Shown in pieces: positions 46,766 to 64,000 of a stretch of DNA of 64,000 nt (positions are counted from its first letter, which is position 1; each line of letters starts with the position of its first letter). The notes under the pieces were generated by a model. The model did no database searches and had not been told where the DNA came from. It saw only the letters and a program-made list of their open reading frames with translations. The DNA comes from Candidatus Heimdallarchaeum aukensis (GTDB taxonomy: Archaea; Asgardarchaeota; Heimdallarchaeia; Heimdallarchaeales; Heimdallarchaeaceae). The DNA is taken from NCBI GenBank assembly GCA_021513695.1, contig CP084166.1:128001-192000 (forward strand), read 5' to 3'. A program made the translations under genes and the position numbers.

Positions 46766-46917
46766 GCTTCTTTAAAATTCTGAAAATTGCCAAAAAAATT
46801 TTTCTAAAACAATTTTTTATTATTTATTAATTTTCGTAATACCTTGCTAATACTAAATCCTTCACGACAAAAACATATTTATTTCTGTTTACAATTGTGA
46901 TATAGTAGATATCTAAG

Positions 46918-47127: not shown

Positions 47128-47169
47128 TTCTCTTATAACTCCTTCTGTATTTCTGTTATTTTAGCCCTA

Positions 47170-49161: not shown

Positions 49162-49243
49162 TATTTCCCATTTTAATTTATAAGATAAAAAAATTCTCTT
49201 AAATACTTAAAGCTACAGATATCTTTTTATTTTTTAGCTACGT

Positions 49244-51307
49244 ATGTCTCATATATTGAAGCAAAATGTAAAGATACCCAAAGAAATACTCCCATTCTAT
49301 AAATTATTTAATGATTATGAGAAAGAACAATTTCAAAAATTGTCATCTTTAAACCAAATGTCTAATTTAAATGAAATAGGTACATTATTGTTAGATATCT
49401 TTAATAAAGAAATTGAACACACTTCATATTTTATGCTTGCTCTTGGCAGAATATTATATCATACTTCAGATATGTTAAATCTTGAAAATATCTATAAAGA
49501 AACCGATTCTGCTGAAATAGGGTTATGGTACGCTTTCTTGAGAATTATTAGTTCAGACGATGTACGAAAGGAAGAAATTCTATTAGATCAACTGAAAGAA
49601 AAACTAAATTATTCCTTATTGCACCTTCTTTGGACTATTGTTGAGCTTAATTTTTATGTATATTCAGGAAATCAATTTAATTTTAGAGAAACTAAAGATA
49701 TTATAATTAATCGTTTTTTAGTTGAAGATATCGAAAATAGAGAAAAACATAAAGTGATTTTCAAGCTTTTTTATTCATATATTTTAATTATAGAAATAAA
49801 TTTGAATTTTCTACAGAATCACATTTCATATGCTAAAGACCTACTTATCCATGCTTCTGATATTATAGTTACTTTAGAAGATAGGATTTTAGAGTCGATG
49901 CAACTTAGATTATCTGCATTAATTGAGTTAAGAAAAAACAACTTTTCAACAGCTCAACATCTATTTTTACGTTCTCTTGCTCTCGCAGATATGTTAAAAG
50001 AAATAAGATTTGCAATACAAGTTAATTCAGAAATTGGAGACCTATATCTACAGATGGGCCATGTTAAAGATGCAAAATTGTTTTACGATAAATCACTAGA
50101 GCTTTTAAAAAAGCATGTACCTTATGATTCTTCATTGCAAGGCATTCTACTTTCTAAGATTGCTGATTACTATTTTGTGAATGAAAAGTTTCAAAAGTCT
50201 CTAGATTTGCTTGATGAAGCTCTTTCATTCTTTAAAGTAGATAATAATTTTTCATTTCAGATCAAACTCAAATACATTGAATATCTTTTAAATTTGAAAA
50301 AAGTTAATAAAGCAGAATCTTTGTTGGTTTCAAGTTTTCAAAAGAAAGACAATTATCTTTATTTGCAGAATCAGAGTTTTTGCCTGTATTTAAGAGGATT
50401 TATTGAATTTCTTAAGAAGAATTTTGGTAAAGCCCAGTCTTTCCTCTATGAGGCAATAGGGATTGCAGATAGAACAGGAGATGAATGGACCAGTTCAAAA
50501 TCTTTAGTTCTTCTTTTAATTTTGCTTCTTCTAAAGTATAACTTAGCTTCAAAAGTAGACGATATAGTAGAAGCAGACAAGTGTGTAGATGATATAATTA
50601 CATTTTTAGAAGAAAAAGCGAAGTTTAAAGAACTTGCTCAGATATATCTAATTCGAGCTAAGATAAGAAAAATACTTCTCGACTTTGAGACTTCACTTTT
50701 TTTACTGAAAACAGGAGAAAATATAGCTAGACAGTATTATCCTGAACTTATTACTAAATATGAAGAAAATATTGATGAGATTTCTAGACTCTTAAATTTT
50801 GAAAACATTGCAGAGACAGAAACACCCTCCATAGATTTCAAGGAAGATATTGACACAATTTTTCAAATTCTTATCAGACAGACTAAAAAACTTGGTTCTC
50901 CAATAGAAAGTATTACAATAGCCGTACTTATTTTTCATTCAAGCGGTATACCAGTTCGGACTTATCGTTCTGAAGAGCTCTATATTAGTGATGATATGAT
51001 CTTTGGTGGTTTTGTGTCAGCAATAAGACATCTGCTTGATGAATTGTTCTATTCCCAAGAATCAAAGTCTTTAAGTGTTGATCATGGACAGTACAAGCTT
51101 CTAATTGAGTTTTACAAGAATTTATTTTCTATTGTTATTCTTACTGTTCGAGATAGCTTCTTGTTACGCAGAAAGATGCATCAATTAGTTAGTTTTGTAG
51201 CTTCAAAGGATCTGTTCAAAGAGAAATATTTTGGTAAAATTGATGAACTTGCTTTGAGAGACATTGATTCATTTGTTGAGAAGTTGTTTAAAGTCAAAAA
51301 GAATTAG
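49244..51307 (+). CDS. TPR-repeat protein with a C-terminal roadblock/LC7-like domain
   Basis: Central TPR-like helices. The C-terminus ITIAVLIFHSSGIPVRTYRSEELYISDDMIFGGFVSAIRHLLDEL...YKLLIEFYKNLFSIVILT fits the roadblock pattern. Confidence 0.5.
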   Translation: MSHILKQNVKIPKEILPFYKLFNDYEKEQFQKLSSLNQMSNLNEIGTLLLDIFNKEIEHTSYFMLALGRILYHTSDMLNLENIYKETDSAEIGLWYAFLRIISSDDVRKEEILLDQLKEKLNYSLLHLLWTIVELNFYVYSGNQFNFRETKDIIINRFLVEDIENREKHKVIFKLFYSYILIIEINLNFLQNHISYAKDLLIHASDIIVTLEDRILESMQLRLSALIELRKNNFSTAQHLFLRSLALADMLKEIRFAIQVNSEIGDLYLQMGHVKDAKLFYDKSLELLKKHVPYDSSLQGILLSKIADYYFVNEKFQKSLDLLDEALSFFKVDNNFSFQIKLKYIEYLLNLKKVNKAESLLVSSFQKKDNYLYLQNQSFCLYLRGFIEFLKKNFGKAQSFLYEAIGIADRTGDEWTSSKSLVLLLILLLLKYNLASKVDDIVEADKCVDDIITFLEEKAKFKELAQIYLIRAKIRKILLDFETSLFLLKTGENIARQYYPELITKYEENIDEISRLLNFENIAETETPSIDFKEDIDTIFQILIRQTKKLGSPIESITIAVLIFHSSGIPVRTYRSEELYISDDMIFGGFVSAIRHLLDELFYSQESKSLSVDHGQYKLLIEFYKNLFSIVILTVRDSFLLRRKMHQLVSFVASKDLFKEKYFGKIDELALRDIDSFVEKLFKVKKN

Positions 51308-51389
51308 TTATTTATGCTCATAAAAAGTTTTTTCTTTTAGACGTAACAAGATAATATTTTTAAGAATAGTAAATATAATGTAAATAAGA

Positions 51390-53474
51390 ATGTCAGTAGT
51401 ATACAGTTTCCCTAGGGAATATAGTCATTATATCCCTCTTTTCACTAGAGAAGAACAAGATTTGATTAACAACTTTTCATCAAAAGTTAATAAAGATACT
51501 TCAATGGGAATCTTGAAAGATATCCTTTTAGATATTTTAGATAATCTTTCTTCCCCTTCTCTCTATTTCTTATACTCACTAGGTAAAGTTTTATTCATTT
51601 CTAGTAATTATAATCTACTTGAAGAACTCAATAAGAAATATAAAAGTGAGAGTTTAGAGCTGTGGTGGGGAAATGCTCTAATAAGGCGAACTGAGAATGA
51701 TAAAGTAATTAATCTCGCTTTGAAAATACTCAACAAGAATCCTGAAGAAAAAATAATTAGATTACATTGTTATGCCCTTTTAGCTAATGCATATGCAAAT
51801 ATGGAAAGTGAAAATCAATATAGACATTATATGCAAGAACTCTATCATGAGTCAATTATCTTTCATAGAGATTTAGATAAAGAAAAAATTGTAATAAATG
51901 ATATCCTTCTTTTTGCACATGCTATTGACATTTGGAAAGAGAGAATATCTGCACCTCTTTTAAAACTTGAAAACAAAATTGATGTAGCTTTTCAAATTGC
52001 AAAAGAACTAGGAGATCGTTATCACCTTGGAAGGTTGTACAACATAAGAGGAGTAATTTACAGATATGTAGGAAGAATCTCTGATTCATTTGAATTTATA
52101 AATAAGGCTATAAATTATTATAAAGCAGTTGGAGCTAGGAGAGGAGTAGCAGCAGCAAAAGCAAATCTTGCAACAATTTATACAATTAAAAATGAACTAG
52201 ATAAAGCCGAGAAATTACTAAAAGAGTCTCTCTCAATTTTTTTGGAAGTAGGTGATTACAAAAATCAATCCTTAATTCACTCTTCTTTAGGTGAAATTGC
52301 TATTGCTAAAGGAGATTATCACTCTGCTTTAGAATTGTATGAAGAATCTGTAAGTATATTGGAGCAAATAAACGCACACGAACTACAAGTTTATTGCTCT
52401 TTAGGCGAATTATATTATTTCTTAGGAAATAAAGAAAAAATGAAAATAATAATGAAATTCCTGCAAGAGACAGACAAAAAGAAAGAAGGATTCGTCTATG
52501 GATATTATAATTTGTTTAAAGCTCTTTTAGAAATTGATAACATGAATTATGGTAAAGCAAATGAATACTTGGAAAAAGCTTTGTCTATAAGTGATACAAG
52601 AGGAACAGGATTTTTCTCTGCAAAAATACTTCTTCAACTGTCATTGATCAACATAAAGCAATATGATTCTTTTCAAGAAAAGGAGTATTTAGAAAAAGCA
52701 AAACAGTACATAAATGATTTAGAACCATTTTATGAAGAGTTGAATAAAACAATTGAACATGTAATAATTCTATTGGTTCTTTCAAAAATATATGCAGTAA
52801 TGGAAGAATATACGAAGTCTTTTAACATTTTACAAAAAGCAAAAGATCGTCTTAATTTGTCAAAGAAAGAAAGAAAAAAGGATAAATATTACCACTTAAT
52901 AGAAAATAGAATTAAAGAACTTGAAGAAATCTTTTCAAAAGCCAAAACCGAAACATCATTCCAAAATGAAACTTTTCAATATGAAATTAAAGAAATGGAA
53001 AGTATAAGCATTAGACAAATATCAGAATATGAAAAAGAATTAAGAACTTCAATATTGGCACTTTTAATAGTACATCCTTCAGGAATACCTTTAATGAATT
53101 ATACGCTCAAGAGGTCTAGTCAATTTAGAGATGAACTAATGTTTGGAGGTTTTATTGTAGCTGTAAAAGACATGATAGAAGAGTTATTCTCTAATCCAAT
53201 GCAGAGTAAAGTAATGGTCATTAGCTATGGTAATAATAAGATAATAATGGAGCACAGTCCAAAGAGAAATTTTAGTGTAATTATTTTATCATCAAAGGAT
53301 AGTTTTATTCTACGAAGAAAAATTCATCGATTAACTCAAAATCTACAAGATATAGAGCTCCCGCAACAGTATATTGGAGAATTGACCCCTAAAACAGCTT
53401 CAAGAATAAATGAAGAAGTAAAAAATGTTTTTGGAGAAAACTTAATGCTATATGAAGGTGCTGTTCATATTTAG
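51390..53474 (+). CDS. TPR-repeat protein with a C-terminal roadblock/LC7-like domain (paralog of 49244..51307)
   Basis: Clear TPR units (NLATIYTIKNELDKAEKLLKESLSIFLEVGDYKNQSLIHSSLGEIAIAKGDYHSALELYEES). The C-terminus TSILALLIVHPSGIPLMNY...LMFGGFIVAVKDMIEEL...NKIIMEHSPKRNFSVIIL is roadblock-like. Confidence 0.5.
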   Translation: MSVVYSFPREYSHYIPLFTREEQDLINNFSSKVNKDTSMGILKDILLDILDNLSSPSLYFLYSLGKVLFISSNYNLLEELNKKYKSESLELWWGNALIRRTENDKVINLALKILNKNPEEKIIRLHCYALLANAYANMESENQYRHYMQELYHESIIFHRDLDKEKIVINDILLFAHAIDIWKERISAPLLKLENKIDVAFQIAKELGDRYHLGRLYNIRGVIYRYVGRISDSFEFINKAINYYKAVGARRGVAAAKANLATIYTIKNELDKAEKLLKESLSIFLEVGDYKNQSLIHSSLGEIAIAKGDYHSALELYEESVSILEQINAHELQVYCSLGELYYFLGNKEKMKIIMKFLQETDKKKEGFVYGYYNLFKALLEIDNMNYGKANEYLEKALSISDTRGTGFFSAKILLQLSLINIKQYDSFQEKEYLEKAKQYINDLEPFYEELNKTIEHVIILLVLSKIYAVMEEYTKSFNILQKAKDRLNLSKKERKKDKYYHLIENRIKELEEIFSKAKTETSFQNETFQYEIKEMESISIRQISEYEKELRTSILALLIVHPSGIPLMNYTLKRSSQFRDELMFGGFIVAVKDMIEELFSNPMQSKVMVISYGNNKIIMEHSPKRNFSVIILSSKDSFILRRKIHRLTQNLQDIELPQQYIGELTPKTASRINEEVKNVFGENLMLYEGAVHI

Positions 53475-53613
53475 AAATCAAATTACAATGAATAAATCTT
53501 AATAGTGAAGTTTCTAACAGGGTAAAGAAAATACTTTTTTTGATAAAGTAAATTGAAGTGAAATTTATTTTTTCCTAGAAAAATTAAAAAACAAGCAAAA
53601 ATCAAAGCATTAT

Positions 53614-54720
53614 ATGAGTAAATTATTTACTCCCTTTAAAATAGGAAAAATTGAACTAAAAAATAGATTGATAAGATCAGCAACTACCTCATATTGGTCA
53701 ACGAATGATGGATTACTTACAGAACCTATCTTTGATTATTACGAGAAACTTGCTAAAGGGGGAGTAGGTCTTATTATAAAAGGTCATTCGTATATAAATG
53801 ATAAAGCAAGAGCACATCAAAGACAATCAGGATTATGCAACAAAGAACATGTAAAAAAAATGAAAGAATTAACGGAAATTGTTCATAAATATGAAACTCC
53901 TATTATTGCTCAATTAAACCATGGGGGATATTATTGTAGAGATGACAGAATTAGTGCTTCCAAGTACCGTTCTAAAAAATGGCAATCTAGACAAGCATCT
54001 ATTGAAGAAATAAAAAAAATAATTAATGATTTTGCTAATTCAGCTGAACTTGCTATAGAAGCAGGGTTTGATGGAGTACAGATTCATGCAGCACATGGTT
54101 ATCTTATAAGTCAATTTTTATCTGATATTGTTAATAAGAGAAAAGATGAATATGGAGGGTCTTTAGAAAATAGAGCTCGTCTGCTTTTAGATGTTTATTC
54201 TGCAATCAGAGACAGAATCGGAAAAAGAGAAGTAGTAGGAGTAAAAATCAACTGTGATGATTTCGCTAATGAAGGTGGATTTACAATAGAGCAATCTATA
54301 CAAGTAATGAAATGGTTATCAAAAAATTCCATTGACTTTATTGAAATATCTGGAGGAGGTCCTGAACAAAATAGAGAAATTAGAAAAAAGAGAGCTAGAT
54401 ACATAGATTCAAGTAATGGAAAGTCTCCTTTAGAACAACCAACATTTGGTGGATATGCAATTAAAATAAAAAAAGAGATTAAAAACACTCCTCTCTCTTT
54501 AGTTGATGGAATACGAACAAAAGAAACAATGGATGCTTTGCTCGATAATAATATTGTTGACTTGGTTTCGATGAGTAAGCCATTTATTATTGAACCTGAT
54601 TTTCCAGCAAAAATGAAAAACGGACAAAGTCGTTCAGCTTGTATTGACTGTTTAAGATGCTTACAGCCTAACAATTTTGGTAAAAAAATGTTAAGATGTT
54701 TCTATCTAAACGAGATCTAA
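53614..54720 (+). CDS. Old Yellow Enzyme family NADH:flavin oxidoreductase
   Basis: LFTPFKIGKIELKNRLIRSATTS...HAAHGYLISQFLS are the OYE TIM-barrel hallmarks. Confidence 0.7.
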   Translation: MSKLFTPFKIGKIELKNRLIRSATTSYWSTNDGLLTEPIFDYYEKLAKGGVGLIIKGHSYINDKARAHQRQSGLCNKEHVKKMKELTEIVHKYETPIIAQLNHGGYYCRDDRISASKYRSKKWQSRQASIEEIKKIINDFANSAELAIEAGFDGVQIHAAHGYLISQFLSDIVNKRKDEYGGSLENRARLLLDVYSAIRDRIGKREVVGVKINCDDFANEGGFTIEQSIQVMKWLSKNSIDFIEISGGGPEQNREIRKKRARYIDSSNGKSPLEQPTFGGYAIKIKKEIKNTPLSLVDGIRTKETMDALLDNNIVDLVSMSKPFIIEPDFPAKMKNGQSRSACIDCLRCLQPNNFGKKMLRCFYLNEI

Positions 54721-54797
54721 AAAGAAAATTTTCTTTTTTATCTCTAATCACTAAACTAAAAGATTTAATATTTATTTTTATGTTATTGTTCTGAACA

Positions 54798-55625
54798 ATG
54801 ACATCTAATTTTGAGTATTTTAAAATATTAAAGCCTGTCTTAGTCACTGGAGGAATGATATTAAACCTCATGAGAGGAAAAGTAACTAATCAACCAAAAG
54901 AAAGTGATCTCCCTCCAGAATTGGTTAAAGAAAGCTCTACTGCTCACACAGAAATTGACGACTTTGTACAAGATATAGCCCTCGAAATTCTCCATTCTTC
55001 TTTACCAGATATTGGAATAAATGCAGAAGAAGTTACAGATAGAGTAAAATGGTTTAAACAAGACAAAACAGGACTCTGTTTTCATCTAGATCCCTTAGAT
55101 GGGACGCTGGCATATACAAAAAATAGAGAAGATTTTGCTATTGGTGCAGCTTTATCTGACAAATTAAAATTTATAGCCAGTGGGATATACTTTCCTGCAG
55201 TTGATAGACTTTTTTACGCAGAAAAAGGAAAAGGTGTTCTAGTTATTAATAGTTTAGGAGAAAAGATTTCATTCACTAGACCTTCCTCACCAGAAAAAAA
55301 ATATGCGCAAAAAAGATGTGATGAGTATGTTCCCATTCTAGAAAAATTAGCTTTTACAAAGCTAGATTCAATGAGTGCTCATCATAGTATGATTTCTATC
55401 CTAGAAGGAAAAGCTGCAATTCAGATGTATCATATGGCAAGCCCTCATGATTTTGGAATTCCTCAACTAATTCTTGAAGAAGCAGGAGGAATATGTACTG
55501 ATCTTGAAGGGAAACCAATAAAATATGACCCAGACTTTAATAGAGTGCCCTACTTCCTCGCTTTCTTTGATACTAAAATCAAGGACTTATTTTTCAAAGA
55601 AATAGAGAGAAGTAAAACATTGTAG
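54798..55625 (+). CDS. inositol monophosphatase/fructose-1,6-bisphosphatase family protein
   Basis: FHLDPLDGTLAY is the IMPase DPxDGT motif. An upstream ...EEV.DRVKW region is also present. Confidence 0.65.
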   Translation: MTSNFEYFKILKPVLVTGGMILNLMRGKVTNQPKESDLPPELVKESSTAHTEIDDFVQDIALEILHSSLPDIGINAEEVTDRVKWFKQDKTGLCFHLDPLDGTLAYTKNREDFAIGAALSDKLKFIASGIYFPAVDRLFYAEKGKGVLVINSLGEKISFTRPSSPEKKYAQKRCDEYVPILEKLAFTKLDSMSAHHSMISILEGKAAIQMYHMASPHDFGIPQLILEEAGGICTDLEGKPIKYDPDFNRVPYFLAFFDTKIKDLFFKEIERSKTL

Positions 55626-55809
55626 ATGACTTATTTTTTTACGTAAGTTTGTAAAAATTGAGGGAGAATTGAATGTAAAAAAAGAAAAAGGAAAGGAGGA
55701 AGGGAGTGGAAAGGAAAATGATGGCTTTTTATAGGGAAAAAAAGTATAAGTAAGTAAGAAGAGAAGAAGAAAACCAAAGAAAGAGAAAATAGAAGGAGAA
55801 AAGAAAGAG

Positions 55810-57255
55810 ATGGAGGCCGTCGTCAAAACCTTGAAAGTGAGAATAAAGAATGAGGTATTGACGACAAGGAAGAAGGAAAGGTTAAGGAGAATAACAGGAA
55901 GAGATACGAGAATAATAGAAAAGTATGTGAGAATAATACACCAAAATAGAAAAAAAATATGTATAAGAACTAAAAAAGGGAAAATAAGAGTACATAGAGG
56001 AAAATTAGACGATTTAACATTAACTACTTCAAGAGTAAAAGAAGAAGAGAGGAGAAAGACTTTTCCTCACGACCTTAAGAAAATGTTCCCCTATTGTTCT
56101 CACAATGAGTTTCAAGAGTGTAGAGATATAGCTGTACAACTATATAAACAATGGTATAGACCTAACACCACTCGTCCTCCAATAAAGAGAGCGAGAAGAC
56201 AACTAATTAATGGAAAGAGGTTCATCCTCATCCATCTACCAAAAGAAAAGAATAACACTCTCACTCGTTGGTGGGTAGGAATAAGAGACTCGTTAGACAC
56301 TTGGAAAAGAAATACCCCCTATCATCAGAAGTTGTGGTTACCTTTAGAGATGAGCGATTTCCACCAGAAAGAGTTAAAAAAAGGACAGATAAAAGGTCTA
56401 GAACTGCGATACAAACGTTCTACAAGTGAGTGGTGGGTATATTTTCAACTAAAAGTTCTTCCTCCTTCTTCTTTTCTAAGCGATAATTCCTCTTCTTCTC
56501 TTCCTCCAGCTGTGCTGGGAATAGATCTGGGGATAAACATTCCTGCTGCAGGAGTGTTACTAACCCCTAAAAAGAAGTTAACTATTAAACAGATAAAATT
56601 CTAGTATACCAAACAGTGGAATATAATCAATCATAGATATAAACTCAAACTTTCCCGTCTTCAGAGGAAAGCGGCTTTAAACGACCAGTCGGGTAAAAAA
56701 CACCAAGTTTATCGTTTTCTTGGTCTTCTTCGTCGGAGATATAGAAACGTTAAACTGGCGTATATCCACCAATTTGTAAACGATGTTGTGCGGACAATAG
56801 AGACTTATGCACAAGTGTATGACCTTTTCGTCGTCGTAGGTTATCCTAAACATATCCGTGAAGAGAAAGGAAAAGGGAAAGTTTCTCGTCAATTTCGCAG
56901 AAAACTTCATCAGTGGAACTATGCTCTTGTTCTTGGTCTTCTCCGTCGGGCATTAATATTAAGAGGTTTCGAATCTCACCGTATTCTCACTTTAGACGAA
57001 AGAGGAACATCCTCTCACTGTTCTCGTTGTGGAACGAAAGTCTCTCGCCCTGTCAGAGGGTTAATCTCTTGTTCTTCTTGTAATTACACTTTCCACTCTG
57101 ACCTCACAGGAGCAATGAATATCGCTCGAAGGTTCCTTGGTCATCTTTTCCGTCCTCGTGCAACAACTATTACTGACCACCTTACTGGCTATAAATTCAG
57201 TCTCACCCATTTCACTGTTTGCCAAGGGCTCAGCCATTGGTTGCAGTCCCAGTAG
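55810..57255 (+). pseudogene. tnpB: tnpB (RuvC-like RNA-guided nuclease of the IS605 family) interrupted by a single in-frame TAG at 56602-56604
   Basis: ORF 55810..56604 and ORF 56788..57255 are in the same frame, with an open frame from 56605. Total length 1446 nt = 482 codons. RuvC-I is LGIDLGINIPAAG; the zinc finger is CSRCG...CSSCN; RuvC-III is FHSDLTGAMNIARR. The N-terminus is basic. Confidence 0.75.
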
Positions 57256-57430
57256 ACAAAAAAAGAAACTAATTACTCTTATCTTTGAGGATAGTTATCT
57301 TTTTTTGTCTCTCGTGGAGCGAAGAAAAAGTTCCTTTCTTCTTTATGATTCCCACGATTCGTGTATGATGTCTGTCTCAACCCCTTCTTTCATTGTATGC
57401 TCTGGTTGAGTTCGCAAGAGATCAAACTCT
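57256..57430 (+). ncRNA. candidate TnpB-associated guide RNA (omega/reRNA) scaffold at the IS right end
   Basis: The region immediately 3' of tnpB is GC-richer and carries two short hairpins (57309-57355 and about 57376-57410). This is by analogy with IS605 right-end RNAs and is not verified. Confidence 0.3.
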
Positions 57431-57527
57431 CTTCTAGTTTTTTCTCTTGAAAGACTGAGTGCGAAAAACTTACGTAAAAAAGTAAATCATGAAAAAGAGT
57501 TAAAATCTTCTTTGTTTTTTTTTTGAT

Positions 57528-58550
57528 ATGAAATGGATTTATAAATTTCTAATTAGATTTCTTATTTTTACTCTTCTTTTCGGAATATTTATTGCGATTT
57601 CTGTAAAATTTGCATATGTTGAGCCATCAGAATACATATATTCAGATAATGATTGGGATAATTTCTCTTATACTCCAGAATATAATCATTCTCAGTGGAA
57701 TGTTTTGCTTGATGCTCATTCTCACACTTATTATTCGGATGGTTATCTTTCTCCTAGACAGAATATCCTTTGGCATATCGCTATGGGCTTTAATGCTATG
57801 GTTCTTACTGATCATAATACGTTTGATGGTGTTGAAGAGATATTAAAATTAGCAAGAGAAGAGTTTAATGACTCCATTAAAGTTTTTAGAGGTATGGAAT
57901 GGACTACTGATAGAAGTCATCTAAATATTATTCTTCCTCCTGATGTTACTCCTGAAGATTATGAAAAACTGAAAACACATAAGAGTTATTCTTACACTCC
58001 TACAGATGAAGAATTTAAGAGTATAATTGAAGAAACACATTCTATTGGAGGGTTGGTGATTGTTAACCATATTCCTTGGTCAGAAGAGTTTTGTCACGAT
58101 CAGCCAACAAGAGAGCAATTTCTTGAGTGGGGTGTAGATTATATAGAAATAATTAATGAAGAAACTTATGACAAAGTTTCTGAAGATTTTTGCATAGAAA
58201 ATAATCTGGGAATAATTACAGGAACAGATATGCACAAACCAGAACCAGTTTATGCATGGACAACACTAAATGTTTCTGAATTTTCAGAGGAAACAATCTT
58301 TAATGAACTAAAAGCAAAAAGAACAGGATACATTTTTACTGGAGCAGCTTCTCCTTATCCTATTGAACACAGACATAACCCTGCTTATTCTATTTTTTAT
58401 CCTTTTATCAAAATGGGCGAAGTATTCAGAGATGTTTATTCAAGTCCATATTTTGCAGAATACTTGACTCCCATATTTCTCTATCCTTACTTAATCTTCT
58501 TTTCTGTAGAACTAACCAAATTTGTGATTTATAAAAAGAGAAAGAAATAA
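57528..58550 (+). CDS. PHP-domain (polymerase/histidinol-phosphatase-like) phosphoesterase, membrane-anchored
   Basis: N-terminal TM/signal. LDAHSHTYYSDGYLSP is PHP motif I. Further His/Asp blocks are present (VLTDHNTFDG, GTDMHKPEP). There is a C-terminal TM helix. Confidence 0.6.
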   Translation: MKWIYKFLIRFLIFTLLFGIFIAISVKFAYVEPSEYIYSDNDWDNFSYTPEYNHSQWNVLLDAHSHTYYSDGYLSPRQNILWHIAMGFNAMVLTDHNTFDGVEEILKLAREEFNDSIKVFRGMEWTTDRSHLNIILPPDVTPEDYEKLKTHKSYSYTPTDEEFKSIIEETHSIGGLVIVNHIPWSEEFCHDQPTREQFLEWGVDYIEIINEETYDKVSEDFCIENNLGIITGTDMHKPEPVYAWTTLNVSEFSEETIFNELKAKRTGYIFTGAASPYPIEHRHNPAYSIFYPFIKMGEVFRDVYSSPYFAEYLTPIFLYPYLIFFSVELTKFVIYKKRKK

Positions 58551-58583
58551 TTCTCTTTTTTCTTTTTTACAACTTAATAGCTG

Positions 58584-59663
58584 TTAGATTGGTCTGTTAT
58601 ATTTCCATCTTTCGATTGTTTCTTTCCAGTTTTCATAGATTTCTTTTTCAACTTCTGGTTCAATTTTGTAATTATCTGGTTTATATTCACGGAGAGTATC
58701 TAAATATGATTGAATATCGGGTTTAACCTTATTAAAATCTCCTAATTGGAGCTGAGAGTAGATTTTTTCTAGATTTTCTATAGGATTTTGACAAAATTCT
58801 TCATATTTAATTTCAATAATGTTTTCTTTGGGAATGGATTCAAGGTCATTGTAGAATTTCTTATACATCTCTTTATACATCTCGAAAATAAACTCTTTAA
58901 TTTCAAAATTAGGTTTTTGCAAATAGAATAGCTTTGTGTTTGTATTGTATAATTTTACTGTTGAAAAGAATACTTTGTAAGGGTCTCTATAAATGTGAAT
59001 GAATTTTGCGTTAGGATACAAATCAAGAATAAGTTTTACTCTAAACGTATCCAAAGGATTTTTGAGCAATAGTTGTTTTCCCTTTCCTCTAATTGTGAGT
59101 TTGTTAATTAAGTATCTGAAAGATTCTTTCCACTTTCTTAATTCTTTTTCAGTTGCATCATCAAAGGAGCAATATTTCAAATATTTTTCTTTATTTCTAG
59201 GGAAGAAAAGAGCTGTAAGGGGAGAAAGTAAGCAATAATTAGTTAACGCAAACTCGTGCTCTTGAGGAGTTTTTGCATTCATTTTCATATTATCCATTGG
59301 ACGTTTCTTTGGAATAAGAGGTGACATTATTGTTTTTGTAAACCAATAACTTGTAAGAAATTGATGAGGGAAGGTTGCTTCAACCATGTTAAGATAATAA
59401 TATCTCTTATCATGTAACATTAGTTCTTGTAGGTAAGTTGTTCCTCCTCTCCAATGTCCAATAATAAATATAGGGTCTTTCTCTAACTTAAGTTTCTTTA
59501 TTCTTTTATTCCATATTAATTGTTCAAATATTACAAAAGGAGAAAAAAGAATTGTTACCAATGTTATTGCAAATACCTTTGGCCAATATTTGATGTGAAT
59601 CCTGAATTTGTTTTCCCATAGTAGTTTTATCCATTTAATAAAACTTGCACCCATAAGAAACAT
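58584..59663 (-). CDS. sulfotransferase-family protein with an N-terminal TM helix
   Basis: IIGHWRGGTTYLQELM resembles the 5'-PSB PAPS-binding loop (PKSGTTW-like). Confidence 0.5.
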   Translation of the reverse strand: MFLMGASFIKWIKLLWENKFRIHIKYWPKVFAITLVTILFSPFVIFEQLIWNKRIKKLKLEKDPIFIIGHWRGGTTYLQELMLHDKRYYYLNMVEATFPHQFLTSYWFTKTIMSPLIPKKRPMDNMKMNAKTPQEHEFALTNYCLLSPLTALFFPRNKEKYLKYCSFDDATEKELRKWKESFRYLINKLTIRGKGKQLLLKNPLDTFRVKLILDLYPNAKFIHIYRDPYKVFFSTVKLYNTNTKLFYLQKPNFEIKEFIFEMYKEMYKKFYNDLESIPKENIIEIKYEEFCQNPIENLEKIYSQLQLGDFNKVKPDIQSYLDTLREYKPDNYKIEPEVEKEIYENWKETIERWKYNRPI

Positions 59664-59771
59664 TGGTACATCAACAGATTGAACAGAAAGAATAGTAGTT
59701 ATAAAAATTTGCTTGAAACGAGAGAAATATTACAGTACATTTAAAAAAAAACTTCTTTATCTTGAAATAAT

Positions 59772-60707
59772 TTGAAAAATATGCTACATTATCTGAAAGT
59801 TGGAACAATAGTCTTTGGTTGGGCTCTTGCTCCTGTTATTGGAGAGTTTATAATTGATCAAACTAAACAATTTTCTCCTTTTCAACTCTCTTTCCTAAGA
59901 TATTCTTTAGCTGCTATCACTTTAATGATAATTTTTCTCTTTCAAAATCGGGAAAAAAGGCCCTCAAAACAAGAGATGGTAAAAACATTGAAAGATAAAT
60001 GGTTTTTTCTTCTTGTTACTAGTATTTTTGTCTCACTTATGCCAATTTGTCTTTTTTTTGCTGTTAAAAAAACAACTGCTTCTTCTGCATCATTCTTGTT
60101 GAACATAAATGTAGCTTTTATCCCTCTAATTGCATTTTTTCTAGTTAAGGAGAAAATAAAAAAGTTTCAAGCAATAGGTGTTTCTGTTACAATAATAGGC
60201 AGTTTTCTAGTTATTTTTGACAAAAAGATAAAATCACTAGATTTTTCTCTTTCTTCTTTTACTTCTTCTACTGTTGTTGGAAATTTACTCGCACTAGCTT
60301 CAGGTTTAAGCTGGGCGATATATACAGTTTTGCTTAAAAAATTCTATACTGAAGAGGATCCACTATTTATTACTTTTCTAAACTTGTTATTAAGCAGTAT
60401 CTTCTTGTTTCCCATTGCATTCTTTATCTTTCCTTTTTCGATTTCTGTTACCTATTTAGGGATAGTTTTAGTAATATCTCTTGCAATAGTATCAACAGCT
60501 TTAGCTTACACTTTTTGGTTAGATATACTTGCTTATATGAGTACAACAGAAGTAGGAGTTATTCAAGTATTAATTCCTGTGATTTCTGCATTGTTAGCAG
60601 TGTTCTTCCTTGGAGAAACAATTACATTTGTTTTTGCTATTGGTGCTTTTTTAATAATAGTTGGTTTGTTTCTAGTTGAAAAAGAGACTGAGCTAGTTGA
60701 AGAATGA
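59772..60707 (+). CDS. EamA/DMT-superfamily transporter
   Basis: 10 TM helices in two 5-helix repeats; 311 aa. Confidence 0.6.
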   Translation: MKNMLHYLKVGTIVFGWALAPVIGEFIIDQTKQFSPFQLSFLRYSLAAITLMIIFLFQNREKRPSKQEMVKTLKDKWFFLLVTSIFVSLMPICLFFAVKKTTASSASFLLNINVAFIPLIAFFLVKEKIKKFQAIGVSVTIIGSFLVIFDKKIKSLDFSLSSFTSSTVVGNLLALASGLSWAIYTVLLKKFYTEEDPLFITFLNLLLSSIFLFPIAFFIFPFSISVTYLGIVLVISLAIVSTALAYTFWLDILAYMSTTEVGVIQVLIPVISALLAVFFLGETITFVFAIGAFLIIVGLFLVEKETELVEE

Positions 60708-60763
60708 ATAAATAAATTAGGAAATCAGAAAAATTTATCTGTTCAAAGAAAAACTATTATGTA

Positions 60764-61552
60764 GTGATAAAGTTGAAAATGATAAATGAAGATATTTGTA
60801 TAAGCAAAGATGAGTTTTTGATTGTTCAGGAAAAAGACATCGAATTTAAGAACCCCATAGTTTTCCTTACATATCCTACTTCAGGGGTTATAGGACCTAT
60901 TATTTCAAATCAGATGATCTCTTCTTTAAAATTAAAAGAAATAGGTTTTTTCAAATCTAAGTTCCTCTCTCCAGTTGTTATCTTTACTGACAACGTACTT
61001 AAACATCCTTACCTAATTTATTCAAATCATGATGGGTCAATTGTGTTAATTTCGATTAATTATCCAGTTCCTCAGAGTTCTTACCTTGCTGTTGCCGAAG
61101 GATTGATTAATTGGGTTGATAGAGAACTAAATGCTAAATATATTGTATGTTTAGATGCTATTCCTGTTCAAGTACGACCCGAGAAAAAAATAGTTATTAC
61201 GGCTGCAGAAAAAGAAATTGCAGATGAAATGAAGAAATATGCAGTCGAATTATATGAAGATGGGGTTGTTTTGGGCTTATCAGGAGCAGTGATGAGTGAA
61301 GCATTACTAAGACAAATTGTAGGAATAGCTTTGCTAACTCCAGCTACAGTTAACTTTCCTGACCCAGAAGCAGCTCTACATTTAGTTGAGGTGATAAATG
61401 ACTTTTTTAAGCTAGGTATAGACATCCAACCTTTAATACAAGAATCTGAAAATATTAAGAAACAACTATCCTTAATGTCTCAAAAACAACAACAAATTGA
61501 AAAAGAAAAAATTCTTCCTCCCAGATCTTCTTTGAGAGAAAGCTTCGTCTAA
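60764..61552 (+). CDS. PAC2-family proteasome assembly chaperone-like protein
   Basis: NPIVFLTYPTSGVIGPIISNQMISSLKLKEIGFF...SIVLISINYP matches the archaeal PAC2/DUF75 N-terminal pattern. The C-terminal tail is acidic/Gln-rich. Confidence 0.55.
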   Translation: MIKLKMINEDICISKDEFLIVQEKDIEFKNPIVFLTYPTSGVIGPIISNQMISSLKLKEIGFFKSKFLSPVVIFTDNVLKHPYLIYSNHDGSIVLISINYPVPQSSYLAVAEGLINWVDRELNAKYIVCLDAIPVQVRPEKKIVITAAEKEIADEMKKYAVELYEDGVVLGLSGAVMSEALLRQIVGIALLTPATVNFPDPEAALHLVEVINDFFKLGIDIQPLIQESENIKKQLSLMSQKQQQIEKEKILPPRSSLRESFV

Positions 61553-61592
61553 ACACTACTTTTTTATTATTTTTCATTTTTTCTAATCTGAA

Positions 61593-62561
61593 ATGAAAAT
61601 TTTTGTTACTCGTAAAATACCAAGAGAAGGAATAGAACTATTGATAAAAAATGGTTTTGAAGTTGAGGTTTTTGAAAAAAAAGAACCCATTTCGAGAGAA
61701 GAACTTCTAAATGGAGCAAAAGGAGCAGATGGATTAATCTGTTTGTTAACTGATAAAATTGATAAAGAGATCATGGAAAAAACTGGAATTAAAGCTATAG
61801 CAAACTATGCTGTAGGATATGATAATATAGATATTCAAGCAGCTACTGAACTAAAAATTCCTGTAACAAACACTCCTGGAGTTCTTACTGATGCAACAGC
61901 AGATTTGACATGGGCTTTAATTCTTGCAGTAAGCAGAAGAATTGTAGAAGCTGATAAGTTTGTAAGAGAACAAAGATTCAAAGGGTGGGAACCAATGCTT
62001 TTTCTTGGTGGAGATTTCAAAAATAAGACTATTGGTATCATAGGAATGGGAAGAATAGGAGAAGCTGTGGCAAGAAGAGCAGTAGGTTTTGGAATGAATA
62101 TCATTTACTTTAATAGAACAAGAAAAAAGAACTTAGAGGAAGAATTAAATGCTAAATTTGTTCCACTAGACACTTTGTTAAAAGAAAGTGACTACATAAG
62201 CATTCATTGCCCCTATACACCAGAGACGCACCATTTAATTGATTGGGAAGAGTTTGAGTTAATGAAACATTCATGTTACTTGATAAATACAGCTAGGGGA
62301 AAAGTAGTTAATGAAAAAGCATTGATAAAAGTTTTACAAGAAAAAAGAATAATGGGCGCAGGATTAGATGTGTTTTACAATGAACCAGAAGTTCCAAAAG
62401 AATTTTATTCACTTCCTAATGTGGTTCTTCTCCCACACATTGGTTCAGCAAGTATAGAAACAAGAAACAAGATGGCTGTAATGGCTGCAGAGAATATTAT
62501 CGAATGCCTAAAAGGAAATATACCTCCAAATATTATAAATAAAGAGATATATGAAAAATAA
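61593..62561 (+). CDS. glyoxylate/hydroxypyruvate reductase (D-2-hydroxyacid dehydrogenase family)
   Basis: IGIIGMGRIGEAVARRA is the NAD-binding motif. The overall sequence resembles the archaeal glyoxylate reductase family. Confidence 0.75.
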   Translation: MKIFVTRKIPREGIELLIKNGFEVEVFEKKEPISREELLNGAKGADGLICLLTDKIDKEIMEKTGIKAIANYAVGYDNIDIQAATELKIPVTNTPGVLTDATADLTWALILAVSRRIVEADKFVREQRFKGWEPMLFLGGDFKNKTIGIIGMGRIGEAVARRAVGFGMNIIYFNRTRKKNLEEELNAKFVPLDTLLKESDYISIHCPYTPETHHLIDWEEFELMKHSCYLINTARGKVVNEKALIKVLQEKRIMGAGLDVFYNEPEVPKEFYSLPNVVLLPHIGSASIETRNKMAVMAAENIIECLKGNIPPNIINKEIYEK

Positions 62562-62566
62562 AAAAA

Positions 62567-63874
62567 TTAAGGATAAACTCGATTTCGAGTTCTAGGGAAG
62601 GGTAAAGTTTCTTGAATAGAGTCTAAACCACATAACCACCAAGTAATTCTTTCTGCACCAAGACCAAATCCCGAATGTGGAACAGAACCATATTTTCTCA
62701 AATCGATGTACCATTTATAATCCTCTGTACTCCACCCTTCTTCCTTGATTCGTCTGATAAGAGTTTTTAGATCATCTTCTCTTTGTCCACCAGTGATGAT
62801 CTCTCCAAAACCTTCAGGCGCTATTAAATCTGCAGAATAACACCATTTAGGGTCATCTTGATAAATCTTAACGTAAAATGGTTTGTGGTGGGCAGGATAC
62901 ATTGTAATAAAGAATGGTTCTCCAATGATCTTAGATAAAGTTCTTTCTTCTTCAGTTTTTATATCGTCATCCCATTTTAGGTTAAATCCGTTATCATTCA
63001 AAATATCTATTGCTTCTTTGTAAGTTATTCTTTTGAATGGAGTTTTGATTTTTTCTAGTTCTGTTGTATCTCTGTTAAGGGCTTTCAACTCTTTTTTATT
63101 GTTTTCAAGAATATAATGAACTATATATGTTACAAGTTCCTCTTGTATTTTCATATTTCCTTCGAAGTCTACAAAAGCTTCTTCTCCTTCTATATGCCAG
63201 AACTCGTTTACATGTCTTTTTGTTCGCATTTTTTCTGCTCTAAAGCTTGGGGTAACAGAATAAACTTTTTCTAAACCGTATATTAGCGCTTCTAAATATA
63301 ATTGAGCACTTTGACTTAGATAAGCGGTTTTATCAAAGTATTTAAGGCTGAAAAGTGTTGCTCCCCCTTCACAAGCAGAACCAGTTAGTATGGGAGGAGT
63401 CGTTTCATAAAAGCCATTGTTGTAAAACCATTCTCTTGCTGCTCTAAGAACAGAAGCTTTTACTTTCATCACATTAACTGATTTTTGGCTTCTTAAGAAT
63501 AAATGAGCATTATCACGGATGAATTCTTGACTTTGATCCTTCGAGATAGGAAAGACTTCACCTTTATGAATGAATTTAAAGTCAGTTATATGAACCTCAA
63601 CATTATTTATTGCCCGATTATCTTCTACAGGTTTACCTTCTATGATTATTGAATTCTCTATTGCTGCATTTTCTAAATTCTTCCATACTTCTTCTGGTAA
63701 TTCTTCTCTATTTGCAACACATTGAATAAGTCCAGAAGCATCTCTTAAAACAATGAAAATTTTCTTTTTCATTATTCTTATTCTATAAATCCAACCTCTT
63801 AACCTAACAATTGAATCTGTAGGTTCAACTTCATCTGCAAATTTGTAATTTTCGGGCATGATATGGTCTAACAA
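62567..63874 (-). CDS. asparaginyl/aspartyl-tRNA synthetase (class IIb; features lean towards AsnRS)
   Basis: N-terminal OB-fold. Motif 2 region: SVTPSFRAE. SACEGGATLF block. Motif 3 region: GFGLGAERITWWLCG. C-terminal PFPRTRNRVYP. Confidence 0.8.
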   Translation of the reverse strand: MLDHIMPENYKFADEVEPTDSIVRLRGWIYRIRIMKKKIFIVLRDASGLIQCVANREELPEEVWKNLENAAIENSIIIEGKPVEDNRAINNVEVHITDFKFIHKGEVFPISKDQSQEFIRDNAHLFLRSQKSVNVMKVKASVLRAAREWFYNNGFYETTPPILTGSACEGGATLFSLKYFDKTAYLSQSAQLYLEALIYGLEKVYSVTPSFRAEKMRTKRHVNEFWHIEGEEAFVDFEGNMKIQEELVTYIVHYILENNKKELKALNRDTTELEKIKTPFKRITYKEAIDILNDNGFNLKWDDDIKTEEERTLSKIIGEPFFITMYPAHHKPFYVKIYQDDPKWCYSADLIAPEGFGEIITGGQREDDLKTLIRRIKEEGWSTEDYKWYIDLRKYGSVPHSGFGLGAERITWWLCGLDSIQETLPFPRTRNRVYP

Positions 63875-64000
63875 TAGACCAATAAAAAATTTTGGGAAGA
63901 ATAGTATTTAAATAAAAAAACATTTTTGGTTTGTTTAGAAAAAGTGGAGAAAAAGTTTTTGCTACTCTTCTTCATTTAACTCAAAAAGATGAGATTTAGG

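What the first reader, a model, noticed from the sequence alone, without database searches (positions are those of the whole stretch)
55810..57255. tnpB is intact except for one in-frame amber codon
The two annotated ORFs (55810..56604 and 56788..57255) are in the same frame, and the frame stays open from 56605. The whole 482-codon TnpB therefore reads through if the single TAG at 56602-56604 (...KQIKF*YTKQW...) is translated. Host genes in this window use TAG as a stop (12758, 30492). The options are a very recent nonsense inactivation, a sequencing or assembly error, or regulated or programmed readthrough. The donor lineage reassigning UAG is another possibility, but I do not expect it here. 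A single-stop tnpB is a marker of recent element activity.
Basis: seen in the sequence. Interest (0 to 1): 0.6.

Follow-up and report, generated by a model that had tools for sequence, protein, structure and literature searches.

The report
Recently nonsense-mutated tnpB transposon copy
One copy of a TnpB-type mobile element in the archaeon Candidatus Heimdallarchaeum aukensis has been knocked out by a single G-to-A change that turned a conserved tryptophan codon into a stop; this is ordinary gene decay, not recoding or programmed readthrough.

Summary
55810-57255 (+) is one 482-codon frame broken only by TAG at 56602-56604. The window is Ca. Heimdallarchaeum aukensis, and the two fragments are its annotated proteins UJG40991.1 and UJG40992.1.

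The codon is TGG (Trp265) in all 11 other DNA copies aligned at that codon. These are the same insertion at the same chromosomal site in a sister-population contig (L001) and 10 paralogs in Ca. H. endolithica. Four further orthologous contigs encode intact Trp265 proteins (P0001, P0128). TAG is therefore a private, derived G-to-A nonsense mutation. TAG ends 9 of 39 long host ORFs here, and no homolog conserves it, so nothing supports recoding or readthrough. Sequencing error cannot be excluded without reads, but it is unlikely for an Illumina-based assembly.

The gene is a divergent TnpB with Cas12f/TnpB fold, invariant D239/E397/D431, a Zn ribbon, and Gly at the canonical RuvC-II Glu position. 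It sits in a 1.87-kb element with 25-nt terminal inverted repeats and a conserved, structured 3' RNA region (a candidate omegaRNA). No transposase is adjacent at any locus checked.

The claim of "recent element activity" is not supported. The insertion predates the strain split, and the nearest paralogs are 82-86% identical. The resident copy shows 8 nonsynonymous changes to 1 synonymous, against a long-term family dN/dS of about 0.15. Interest is low.

The parts
55626..55650 (+). Left terminal inverted repeat (ATGACTTATTTTTTTACGTAAGTTT). In the paralogs the end reads CATG..., but here base 55625 is G, and it is also the last base of the upstream host stop codon.
   Evidence: The repeat pairs 23/25 with 57466-57490, and 0 matches are expected by chance. 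The similarity among 10 paralogs begins exactly at this point.
55725..55739 (+). Conserved CTTTTTATAGGGAAA motif inside the purine-rich 5' leader (55651-55809). It is a candidate archaeal TATA-type promoter for tnpB, about 75 nt upstream of the ATG, and an AAGGAG lies about 12 nt upstream of the ATG.
   Evidence: The motif is conserved in nearly all paralogs (L008 has a deletion across it) and in the homolog L017, which is only 44% identical. The promoter function is inferred and was not tested. The sigma-70 scan is not relevant to archaea.
55810..56601 (+). tnpB codons 1-264: the N-terminal WED/REC-like part and the first three RuvC strands, including the RuvC-I residue D239.
   Evidence: It is annotated as hypothetical protein UJG40991.1.
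56602..56604 (+). In-frame amber codon TAG. It is derived from TGG (Trp265) by a G-to-A change at 56603.
   Evidence: The codon is TGG in the ortholog L001 and in 10 H. endolithica paralogs. Trp is present in P0001 and P0128 and in the homologs that are 40% or more identical.
56605..57255 (+). Remainder of the tnpB frame (codons 266-481 plus the stop). It contains the G344 position (canonical RuvC-II), the alternative Glu E397, the Zn ribbon C404/C407/C421/C424 and the RuvC-III residue D431. All are intact but untranslated after the stop.
   Evidence: The 56788-57255 sub-ORF is annotated as 'transposase' UJG40992.1.
57216..57491 (+). Conserved, structured 3' region that overlaps the end of the ORF and runs to the element end. 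It is the candidate omegaRNA scaffold. Its 5' boundary is not defined.
   Evidence: The region is highly conserved among 12 copies. The MFE is -73.8 kcal/mol with z = -3.8. The consensus has 75 pairs, 6 of them with compensatory changes. 98.8% of cells are paired, against about 48% when the partners are slid, and 0 of 500 shuffles reach the covariation score. There is no Rfam match. None of the substitutions against the orthologs falls here. Expression and function are inferred.
57466..57491 (+). Right terminal inverted repeat, ending ...AAAAAGTAAATCATG.
   Evidence: The similarity among 12 copies ends exactly after ATCATG.
57492..57511 (+). Flank immediately 3' of the element, in the 36-nt spacer before the PHP-domain gene that starts at 57528. 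By analogy with characterised TnpB elements, this position would serve as the omegaRNA guide.
   Evidence: This is inference only, based on the published TnpB architecture (PMC10691335: the TnpB 3' end usually lies within 250 bp of the transposon end). Here the stop codon is 236 nt from the element end.

Best explanation
This is a resident copy of a 1.87-kb non-autonomous TnpB element, and it has just begun to decay. The element has 25-nt terminal inverted repeats, a tnpB gene and a 3' structured RNA, and it carries no transposase. It lies between an inositol-monophosphatase-family gene and a PHP-domain gene of Ca. Heimdallarchaeum aukensis. A single G-to-A transition at 56603 changed the conserved Trp265 codon TGG into TAG. 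Translation should therefore stop after 264 residues. The product would keep the N-terminal RNA/DNA-binding part and RuvC-I. It would lack the long helix that follows, the alternative RuvC-II glutamate (E397), the zinc ribbon and RuvC-III (D431), so it would be nuclease-dead. The rest of the element is untouched: the TIRs, the promoter-like motif and the candidate omegaRNA. In principle the element could still be moved by a transposase supplied in trans, and its RNA could be used by the full-length paralogous TnpBs encoded elsewhere in the same genome. Shown directly: the mutation, its polarity, its privacy to this genome, the shared insertion site, the protein fold and catalytic residues, and the TIRs. 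Inferred: loss of function, the omegaRNA role, and mobilisation in trans.
For: (1) The codon is TGG in the orthologous copy and in all 10 H. endolithica paralogs. Trp is present in P0001-P0009 and in homologs down to about 40% identity.
(2) The same insertion, intact, lies at the same site with the same neighbours (OYE, IMPase, PHP, sulfotransferase) in six other contigs from five metagenomes. The split version is seen only in the H. aukensis record.
(3) No indels or other stops exist: the window differs from L001 by 80 substitutions in 7,446 bp, 8 of them in the element and all 8 in the ORF.
(4) The window haplotype carries four further private missense changes (D68, F85, K113, Q261). At all four, the orthologs and every paralog encode the ancestral residue (at 56013 the paralog base differs but the residue is the same), so this is a real, separately evolving lineage.
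(5) Constraint is relaxed at this locus. Nine sites vary among the orthologous copies: 1 synonymous, 7 missense and 1 nonsense. Host genes show 37 synonymous to 28 nonsynonymous changes (Fisher p = 0.024). Long-term dN/dS between intact paralogs is 0.13-0.21. My hand calculation gives a binomial P of about 0.001 for 8 or more of 9 being nonsynonymous at omega = 0.15.
(6) Decay is common in this family. Of 10 full-length H. endolithica copies, 5 are intact, 1 has a single stop and 4 are frameshifted.
(7) TAG is an ordinary stop here, ending 9 of 39 long ORFs.
(8) TnpB identity is supported by several results: Pfam PF07282 above its cut-off; a profile match to solved Cas12f/TnpB chains at E = 2e-17; an AF2 model with pLDDT 82.7 that matches AsCas12f, ISDra2 TnpB and Fanzor2 over about 460-475 alignment columns; and D239, E397, D431 and four Cys invariant in 58 sequences.
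(9) The assembly was built from Illumina PE150 reads (PMC8813620).
Against: The read pile-up could not be examined, so a consensus error or a minority variant captured by the metagenome assembler cannot be excluded. The TAG haplotype is seen in only one assembly. Loss of function is inferred from the predicted structure and was not measured. Whether the genome carries a UAG-suppressing system could not be checked beyond this window. Sifarchaeia show that Asgard archaea can combine Pyl with frequent UAG stops (PMC9723677), so stop usage alone is weak evidence.
Confidence: 0.88

Rival explanations
1. The TAG is a sequencing, assembly or consensus artefact, or a low-frequency population variant fixed in the assembly. 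On this reading the gene is intact in most cells.
For: The TAG haplotype occurs in one assembly only, and all six other contigs of the same locus have TGG. The genome is a metagenome assembly from an enrichment culture. Six of the 7 element differences from the sister population are G-to-N on one strand, against 18 of 71 in the flanks. That is an odd spectrum and could in principle reflect damage or artefact.
Against: The contigs come from Illumina PE150 metaSPAdes assembly, and Nanopore reads were used only for scaffolding. Consensus substitution errors are rare in such assemblies. The surrounding 7.4 kb shows 72 further differences with a normal synonymous/nonsynonymous mix (37:28), so the window is a real, distinct lineage. 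Single-stop and frameshifted copies are common in the family.
Confidence: 0.07
2. The UAG is decoded, through pyrrolysine, a suppressor tRNA or programmed readthrough, so a full-length TnpB is still made, possibly in a regulated way.
For: The frame is otherwise perfectly open with all catalytic residues intact. Some Asgard archaea (Sifarchaeia) encode a complete Pyl system although 21% of their genes end in UAG (PMC9723677).
Against: No homolog has TAG at this codon: 11 of 11 DNA copies have TGG, so there is no conservation of a recoding site. TAG ends 9 of 39 long ORFs in the window, including the gene that abuts the element. No tRNA gene lies in the window. In the cited survey a complete Pyl system was reported only for Sifarchaeia. 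The amber codon arose together with four private missense changes, which fits decay better.
Confidence: 0.02
3. The truncation is functional. The 264-aa N-terminal fragment, with or without the 155-aa C-terminal ORF, would be retained as a nuclease-dead RNA/DNA-binding regulator or as a split protein.
For: Nuclease-inactive TnpB derivatives with new roles are known as a class (PMC10691335). Recent changes at the locus are almost all nonsynonymous, which could be read as adaptive.
Against: The truncated form is found in one genome only. The next in-frame start is 62 codons after the stop, so the long helix 268-336 predicted by the model would be lost from both pieces. The 8:1 nonsynonymous:synonymous ratio is compatible with plain neutrality, where about 78% of ORF sites are nonsynonymous.
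Confidence: 0.03

Closest known systems
TnpB of IS200/IS605 elements (e.g. ISDra2 TnpB, PDB 8H1J/8EXA): omegaRNA-guided RuvC nuclease
   Same: The fold matches over nearly the full length (Foldseek E = 1.6e-11 to 8h1j). The RuvC-I Asp, RuvC-III Asp and CxxC...CxxC zinc ribbon are present. A conserved, structured non-coding region runs from the 3' end of the gene to the element end.
   Different: The canonical RuvC-II Glu position holds a near-invariant Gly (G344), with an invariant Glu 53 residues downstream (E397). The element has 25-nt terminal inverted repeats instead of asymmetric hairpin ends. No Y1 tnpA is adjacent at any locus checked. Sequence similarity is low: NCBIfam guided_TnpB scores 83 bits against a cut-off of 100, and Pfam OrfB_IS605 is not detected.
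TnpB branches with a rearranged RuvC-II site (the 'RIIr' groups of Altae-Tran et al. 2023, PMC10691335)
   Same: That paper describes Glu-to-Gly replacement at RuvC-II, compensated by an alternative Glu, with several such branches nearly exclusive to archaea. The G344/E397 pattern here fits that description.
   Different: Assignment to a named branch could not be made, because the supplementary tables are not held. The spatial position of E397 in the model was not measured.
TnpBs carried in transposons with symmetrical ends (the DDE-transposase-associated and Asgard-Cas1-associated branches, PMC10691335), including solo TnpBs mobilised in trans
   Same: The element has inverted terminal repeats. 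The 3' end of tnpB lies within 250 bp of the element end (236 nt here). The gene is solo, and the family is restricted to Asgard archaea.
   Different: No partner transposase with matching ends was found. No target-site duplication could be established. The GTTCACTCA motif reported downstream of aCas1-linked TnpBs is not evident here.
Ordinary IS pseudogenes: nonsense or frameshifted transposase and accessory genes in resident insertion sequences
   Same: There is a single disabling point mutation in one copy, intact siblings exist elsewhere, constraint on the resident copy is relaxed, and about half of the family's copies in a sister genome are decayed.
   Different: Nothing material differs. 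This is the category the finding belongs to.
Eukaryotic and giant-virus Fanzor proteins
   Same: They are TnpB-fold nucleases carried in TIR-bounded transposons. Fanzor2 (9b0l) and many giant-virus TnpB-likes are structural matches.
   Different: They are no closer than bacterial Cas12f/TnpB by sequence profile or by fold. No specific affinity was detected.

Membership tests
TnpB / Cas12f-like RNA-guided nuclease superfamily | RuvC-I Asp and RuvC-III Asp | tested here: met
   D239 (GIDLG) and D431 (HSDLTGA) are invariant in 58 homologs. They align to the catalytic motifs of solved Cas12f/TnpB chains.
TnpB / Cas12f-like RNA-guided nuclease superfamily | RuvC-II Glu at the canonical position | tested here: not met
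   The canonical position holds a near-invariant G344 (VVVGYP), and an invariant E397 lies downstream. This fits the 'rearranged RuvC-II' variant described in PMC10691335. Compensation by E397 is inferred.
TnpB / Cas12f-like RNA-guided nuclease superfamily | Zinc-ribbon (TNB) domain between RuvC-II and RuvC-III | tested here: met
   Pfam PF07282 scores 37.4 bits against a cut-off of 26.3. C404, C407, C421 and C424 are invariant.
TnpB / Cas12f-like RNA-guided nuclease superfamily | Full-length fold (WED/REC N-terminal part plus a split RuvC) | tested here: met
   The AF2 model has pLDDT 82.7. Foldseek gives AsCas12f 8j3r at E = 1e-14 (TM 0.51-0.56), TnpB 8h1j at 1.6e-11 and Fanzor2 9b0l at 5e-11, over about 460-475 columns.
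TnpB / Cas12f-like RNA-guided nuclease superfamily | Curated HMM thresholds (NCBIfam guided_TnpB NF040570; Pfam OrfB_IS605 PF01385) | tested here: not met
   NF040570 gives E = 1.9e-23 and 83.4 bits, below the cut-off of 100. PF01385 is not reported at E <= 1. The match is significant but sub-threshold, so this is a divergent member.
TnpB / Cas12f-like RNA-guided nuclease superfamily | Cognate omegaRNA encoded at the 3' end of the gene up to the element end | tested here: inconclusive
   A conserved, structured region is present, with z = -3.8, 6 compensatory pairs and controls passed. The 12 sequences form only 2-3 subfamilies, so independent covariation events are few. There is no Rfam family and no expression data.
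TnpB / Cas12f-like RNA-guided nuclease superfamily | RNA-guided, TAM-dependent DNA cleavage | not testable with these tools
   This needs biochemistry or a cell-based assay.
Classical IS200/IS605 element (Y1 TnpA-mobilised) | Asymmetric ends with subterminal hairpins and no terminal inverted repeats | tested here: not met
   The TIRs are 25 nt and pair 23/25. The ends are conserved as inverted repeats across the paralogs.
Classical IS200/IS605 element (Y1 TnpA-mobilised) | tnpA (Y1 HUH transposase) in at least some copies | tested here: not met
   No transposase gene is adjacent in the window or in the loci with called genes (L001, L013-L019, L117-L121). The H. endolithica paralogs L002-L012 show flank-specific, non-homologous sequence right outside the element ends. 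Only some 20 loci were examined.
TIR-bounded TnpB transposon mobilised in trans (DDE- or aCas1-associated type) | Terminal inverted repeats conserved among copies | tested here: met
   A homolog that is 44% identical (L017) has its own 19-nt TIRs.
TIR-bounded TnpB transposon mobilised in trans (DDE- or aCas1-associated type) | Target-site duplication | tested here: inconclusive
   There are no direct repeats beyond the terminal CATG. CATG may be the TIR tip or a duplicated palindromic target. No empty site was found.
TIR-bounded TnpB transposon mobilised in trans (DDE- or aCas1-associated type) | An autonomous element with the same ends that encodes the transposase | tested here: not met
   TIR pattern scans of metagenome and viral contigs gave only chance hits and two short fragments of the same family.
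UAG recoding (pyrrolysine or programmed readthrough) | In-frame TAG conserved at the same codon in homologs | tested here: not met
   All 11 other DNA copies have TGG, and the homologous proteins have Trp, or an aromatic or hydrophobic residue.
UAG recoding (pyrrolysine or programmed readthrough) | Presence of pylT/pylS/pylBCD or a suppressor tRNA | not testable with these tools
   Only the 64-kb window could be scanned, and it holds no tRNA gene. The genome-wide search is listed under next steps.

The most novel reading that the evidence does not exclude
This Heimdallarchaeum family has about 1.87-kb elements with CATG-tipped 25-nt TIRs, a solo TnpB with a rearranged RuvC-II site, a conserved 3' RNA, and no transposase at any locus examined. 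It could be a not-yet-described class of TnpB transposon, either with an unknown partner transposase or with a mobility mechanism that does not use a dedicated transposase. Because the hosts are the closest archaeal relatives of eukaryotes, it might bear on the origin of TIR-transposon-borne Fanzors. The amber codon itself would stay an ordinary mutation under this reading.
Probability: 0.08. Interest if true: 0.55.

Novelty: new member of a known kind. Interest (0 to 1): 0.15.

Why it matters
The finding matters mainly for annotation. UJG40991.1 ('hypothetical protein') and UJG40992.1 ('transposase') are two halves of one tnpB pseudogene and should be annotated as such. It also gives a clean, dated example of the first step of decay in a resident TnpB element. 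The same insertion is intact in the sister population. The recent substitutions at the locus are almost all nonsynonymous, whereas the family as a whole shows strong long-term purifying selection (dN/dS about 0.15). This fits the view that TnpB is selected during spread of the element and not while a copy sits in place. The element family is a reasonable candidate for anyone cataloguing archaeal RNA-guided nucleases, since it is Asgard-specific, TIR-bounded and has a rearranged catalytic site, but it is of a known kind.

Tried and rejected
(1) 'Element younger than its flanks / homing.' Against the ±3-kb flanks the element looked about 3-fold less diverged (8/1865 vs 72/5581, p = 0.001). It also showed 0 of 317 synonymous and 0 of 420 non-coding differences, against a host pS of 0.038. 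I considered recent introgression or TnpB-driven homing. A 17.6-kb baseline showed that divergence is a mosaic, from 0 substitutions over 2-kb stretches to 3.2-3.8% per 500 bp. The element's 0.43% is therefore unremarkable and the Poisson test was invalid, so I rejected this as evidence.

(2) Partner transposase. The neighbourhoods of five homologs (P0021, P0032, P0046, P0055, P0128) and of the paralogs show solo tnpB only. The TIR pattern scans of metagenome contigs and viral contigs returned chance hits plus two short fragments of the same family.

(3) Empty site. The IMPase homolog search found nothing closer than 74% identity, and those hits lie in different synteny. None of the H. endolithica insertion flanks maps into the window.

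(4) The look-up of P0009 for H. aukensis paralog DNA failed because the protein is not on record.

(5) Rfam gave no match for the 3' RNA.

(6) The branch assignment in the TnpB census could not be made because the supplements are not held, and the Makarova 2020 paper is not held.

(7) Fanzor affinity. The AFDB50 library was unavailable. The BFVD and PDB searches show no preference for Fanzor over bacterial TnpB/Cas12f.

(8) The terminal CATG is not a family-wide feature, since it is absent from L017.
Full report
OBSERVATION. The region 55810-57255 (+) translates as a single 482-codon frame with one internal stop, TAG at 56602-56604 (...KQIKF*YTKQW...), and a terminal TAG. The ORF finder gives 55810..56604 (264 aa) and 56788..57255 (155 aa, GTG start), both in the same frame. 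Among the 39 long ORFs of the window, stops are TAA 23, TAG 9 and TGA 7.

SOURCE. The 264-aa and 155-aa products are identical to UJG40991.1 ('hypothetical protein K9W45_00690') and UJG40992.1 ('transposase') of Candidatus Heimdallarchaeum aukensis, on a 3,081,793-bp chromosome. That genome was assembled from Illumina PE150 reads with metaSPAdes and scaffolded with Nanopore reads (PMC8813620).

WHAT THE TAG IS. A database search with the read-through protein found full-length relatives of 481-489 aa, all from Heimdallarchaeaceae. Every close relative has Trp at the stop position (IKFWYTKQW). More distant relatives have Trp or another aromatic or hydrophobic residue. At the DNA level, the codon is TGG in the orthologous copy L001 and in all ten full-length paralogs recovered from Ca. 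H. endolithica. TAG is thus one G-to-A transition, at 56603, away from the ancestral codon.

THE ORTHOLOGOUS LOCUS. P0001 (99% identical, 481 aa) is encoded on contigs whose neighbours match those in the window: a TPR protein, an Old-Yellow-Enzyme-type oxidoreductase, an inositol-monophosphatase-family protein, then tnpB, a PHP-domain protein, a sulfotransferase and EamA. A second intact variant, P0128, lies at the same site in three more metagenomes. The window and L001 align over 7,446 bp with 80 substitutions and no indel. Eight substitutions fall in the element, and all eight are in the ORF.

I polarised these sites using the other orthologous haplotypes and the paralogs. The window carries five private derived changes: four missense (E68D, V85F, E113K, E261Q) and the nonsense W265*. 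The insertion therefore predates the split between the window strain and the sister population, and the stop arose afterwards on the window branch only.

SELECTION. Nine sites vary in the element among the orthologous copies: 1 synonymous, 7 missense and 1 nonsense. None falls in the 420 nt of non-coding element sequence. Host genes in the same stretch show 37 synonymous to 28 nonsynonymous differences (Fisher p = 0.024 against tnpB). Between intact paralogs, dN/dS is 0.13-0.21 at dS 0.26-0.82. At omega = 0.15 about 35% of changes should be nonsynonymous. Seeing 8 or more of 9 then has a binomial probability of about 0.001 (my calculation from the site counts).

The copy at this locus has therefore been evolving without detectable constraint in both lineages, and the stop is the first visibly disabling hit. 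Decay is common in the family. Of ten H. endolithica copies, five are intact, one has a single stop near the C-terminus, and four are frameshifted.

WHAT THE GENE IS. Pfam detects only the Cas12f1-like TNB zinc-ribbon domain. NCBIfam guided_TnpB matches at E = 2e-23 but scores below its curated cut-off. A profile of the family matches solved Cas12f and TnpB chains at E = 2e-17 to 1e-15.

An AlphaFold2 model of the intact ortholog has mean pLDDT 82.7. It superposes on AsCas12f, OsCas12f, ISDra2 TnpB and mimivirus Fanzor2 over about 460-475 columns. In 58 homologs, D239, E397, D431 and four cysteines are invariant. The position of the canonical RuvC-II glutamate holds a near-invariant glycine, G344. 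This matches the 'rearranged RuvC-II' TnpBs described by Altae-Tran et al. 2023, where Glu is replaced by Gly and an alternative Glu is proposed to compensate (PMC10691335).

In the model, W265 ends the third beta-strand of the RuvC core. The stop therefore removes the long helix that follows, E397, the zinc ribbon and D431. The next in-frame start lies 62 codons downstream, so a functional split protein is unlikely.

THE ELEMENT. The gene lies in a 1,866-bp unit bounded by 25-nt inverted repeats at 55626-55650 and 57466-57490. They pair 23/25, and none is expected by chance. Alignment of the paralogs places the ends exactly there. The left ends read CATG(A/C)TTTAC..., and the right ends read ...GTAAATCATG.

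G+C is 0.37-0.43 in the element, against roughly 0.30 in the host DNA. A CTTTTTATAGGGAAA motif about 75 nt upstream of the ATG is conserved in nearly all copies, and also in a homolog that is only 44% identical. I read it as a candidate archaeal promoter.

The 236 nt between the stop codon and the right end are highly conserved and fold well, with z = -3.8. The consensus structure has 75 pairs, 6 of them with compensatory changes. It is 98.8% paired, against about 48% when the partners are slid, and no shuffle reaches the covariation score. Rfam has no match. I interpret this region as the omegaRNA scaffold. That is an inference from position and structure, and the sequences form only two or three subfamilies.

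The TIRs mean this is not a classical IS200/IS605 element. The anatomy corresponds to the TnpB transposons with symmetrical ends in PMC10691335 (the DDE- or Asgard-Cas1-associated branches), including solo copies mobilised in trans. I could not find the partner. All neighbourhoods examined contain solo tnpB, and pattern scans for the terminus found only chance matches and two short fragments of the same family. No empty site was found, so it is unresolved whether CATG is the TIR tip or a duplicated target.

ALTERNATIVES. Recoding or readthrough is not supported. The TAG is not conserved in any relative, TAG is a frequent stop here, there is no tRNA in the window, and in the survey I read a complete Pyl system in Asgard archaea was reported only for Sifarchaeia (PMC9723677). 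Stop usage alone would be weak evidence, because Sifarchaeia use UAG stops often.

A sequencing or consensus error cannot be excluded without reads, because the TAG allele is known from one assembly only. The Illumina-based assembly and the four accompanying private missense changes make an error unlikely. A domesticated truncated protein is possible in principle, but nothing supports it.

A LEAD I DROPPED. Against its immediate flanks the element looked about three times less diverged and had no synonymous or non-coding differences. This suggested recent introgression or homing. A 17.6-kb comparison showed that divergence along this locus is patchy, from 0 to 3.8% per 500 bp, as expected for a recombining population. 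The element's 0.43% is ordinary, and the immediate flanks happen to be high-divergence patches. I do not regard this as evidence for anything about the element.

'RECENT ACTIVITY'. The same genome encodes at least four full-length paralogs, and H. endolithica has many, so the family has been successful. The window copy, however, is only 82-86% identical in DNA to the nearest known paralogs, with dS about 0.5. It also sits at a site shared with the sister population. The single stop marks recent inactivation of an old resident copy, not recent transposition.

VERDICT. This is an ordinary, recent nonsense pseudogenisation (W265*, TGG to TAG) of one resident copy of a divergent, TIR-bounded, solo TnpB element in Ca. 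H. aukensis. Confidence is about 0.88, and the rest is mainly the untested possibility of a consensus error. Interest is low. The element family is a new member of a known kind.

Noticed in passing
window 46381-64000 compared with L120: Divergence from the sister population is a mosaic. There are no substitutions at all in 47000-48999 and 51000-51999, but 3.2-3.8% per 500 bp at 46500-46999, 55000-55499 and 62000-62499. One cluster has 15 substitutions in 152 bp at 55297-55448. This looks like homologous-recombination imports in a recombining Heimdallarchaeum population. The two high-divergence patches nearest the element stop 178 bp and 70 bp from its ends. That would be expected if imports from donors lacking the insertion cannot span it.
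   Followed up: partly
window 55810-57255: Six of the 7 differences between the window's element and the sister haplotype L118 are G in L118 and another base in the window on the coding strand (3 G>A, 2 G>T, 1 G>C). In the flanks the figure is 18 of 71. The coding strand has only 20% G. The cause of this strand-biased spectrum is unexplained. Possibilities include transcription-associated damage of the very purine-rich non-template strand, chance, or an artefact.
   Followed up: no
window 55623-55625 and 57492-57527: The element sits directly after the TAG stop of the inositol-monophosphatase-family gene (54798-55625) and only 36 nt before the start of the PHP-domain gene (57528). It therefore splits what was probably a very short intergenic spacer between two co-oriented genes. 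Transcription of the PHP gene may now depend on read-out from the element.
   Followed up: no
window 55650-55810: The 5' leader of the element is extremely purine-rich on the + strand (GC skew up to 0.66 and AT skew up to 0.49). This GA-rich character is conserved across the paralogs.
   Followed up: no
window 56712-56736 and 56925-56949: A 25-nt direct repeat (88% identity) lies inside the tnpB ORF and encodes a repeated peptide motif (F)LGLLRRR / (V)LGLLRRA in two predicted helices. Its significance is unknown.
   Followed up: no
L117 894-2816: In one sister-population contig the oxidoreductase and the inositol-monophosphatase genes are called as a single 640-aa fusion product. That contig also differs from the others by an 89-bp length change in the left flank. 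This could be a real fusion or deletion, or an assembly difference.
   Followed up: no
L017 4932-4950 and 6668-6686: A homolog that is 44% identical, from another Asgard MAG, is also a solo tnpB bounded by its own 19-nt inverted repeats of unrelated sequence (TTTTCCCCACTTTTACCAC). It has the same CTTTTTATAGGGAAA motif upstream. TIR-bounded architecture therefore seems to be a property of the wider Asgard family.
   Followed up: partly
(IMPase search): The homolog search with the window's inositol-monophosphatase protein returned neither the protein itself nor a Ca. H. endolithica ortholog. The best hit was 74% identical, although the two genomes share about 90% amino-acid identity overall. Either the gene is missing from H. 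endolithica or the word-based search missed it.
   Followed up: no
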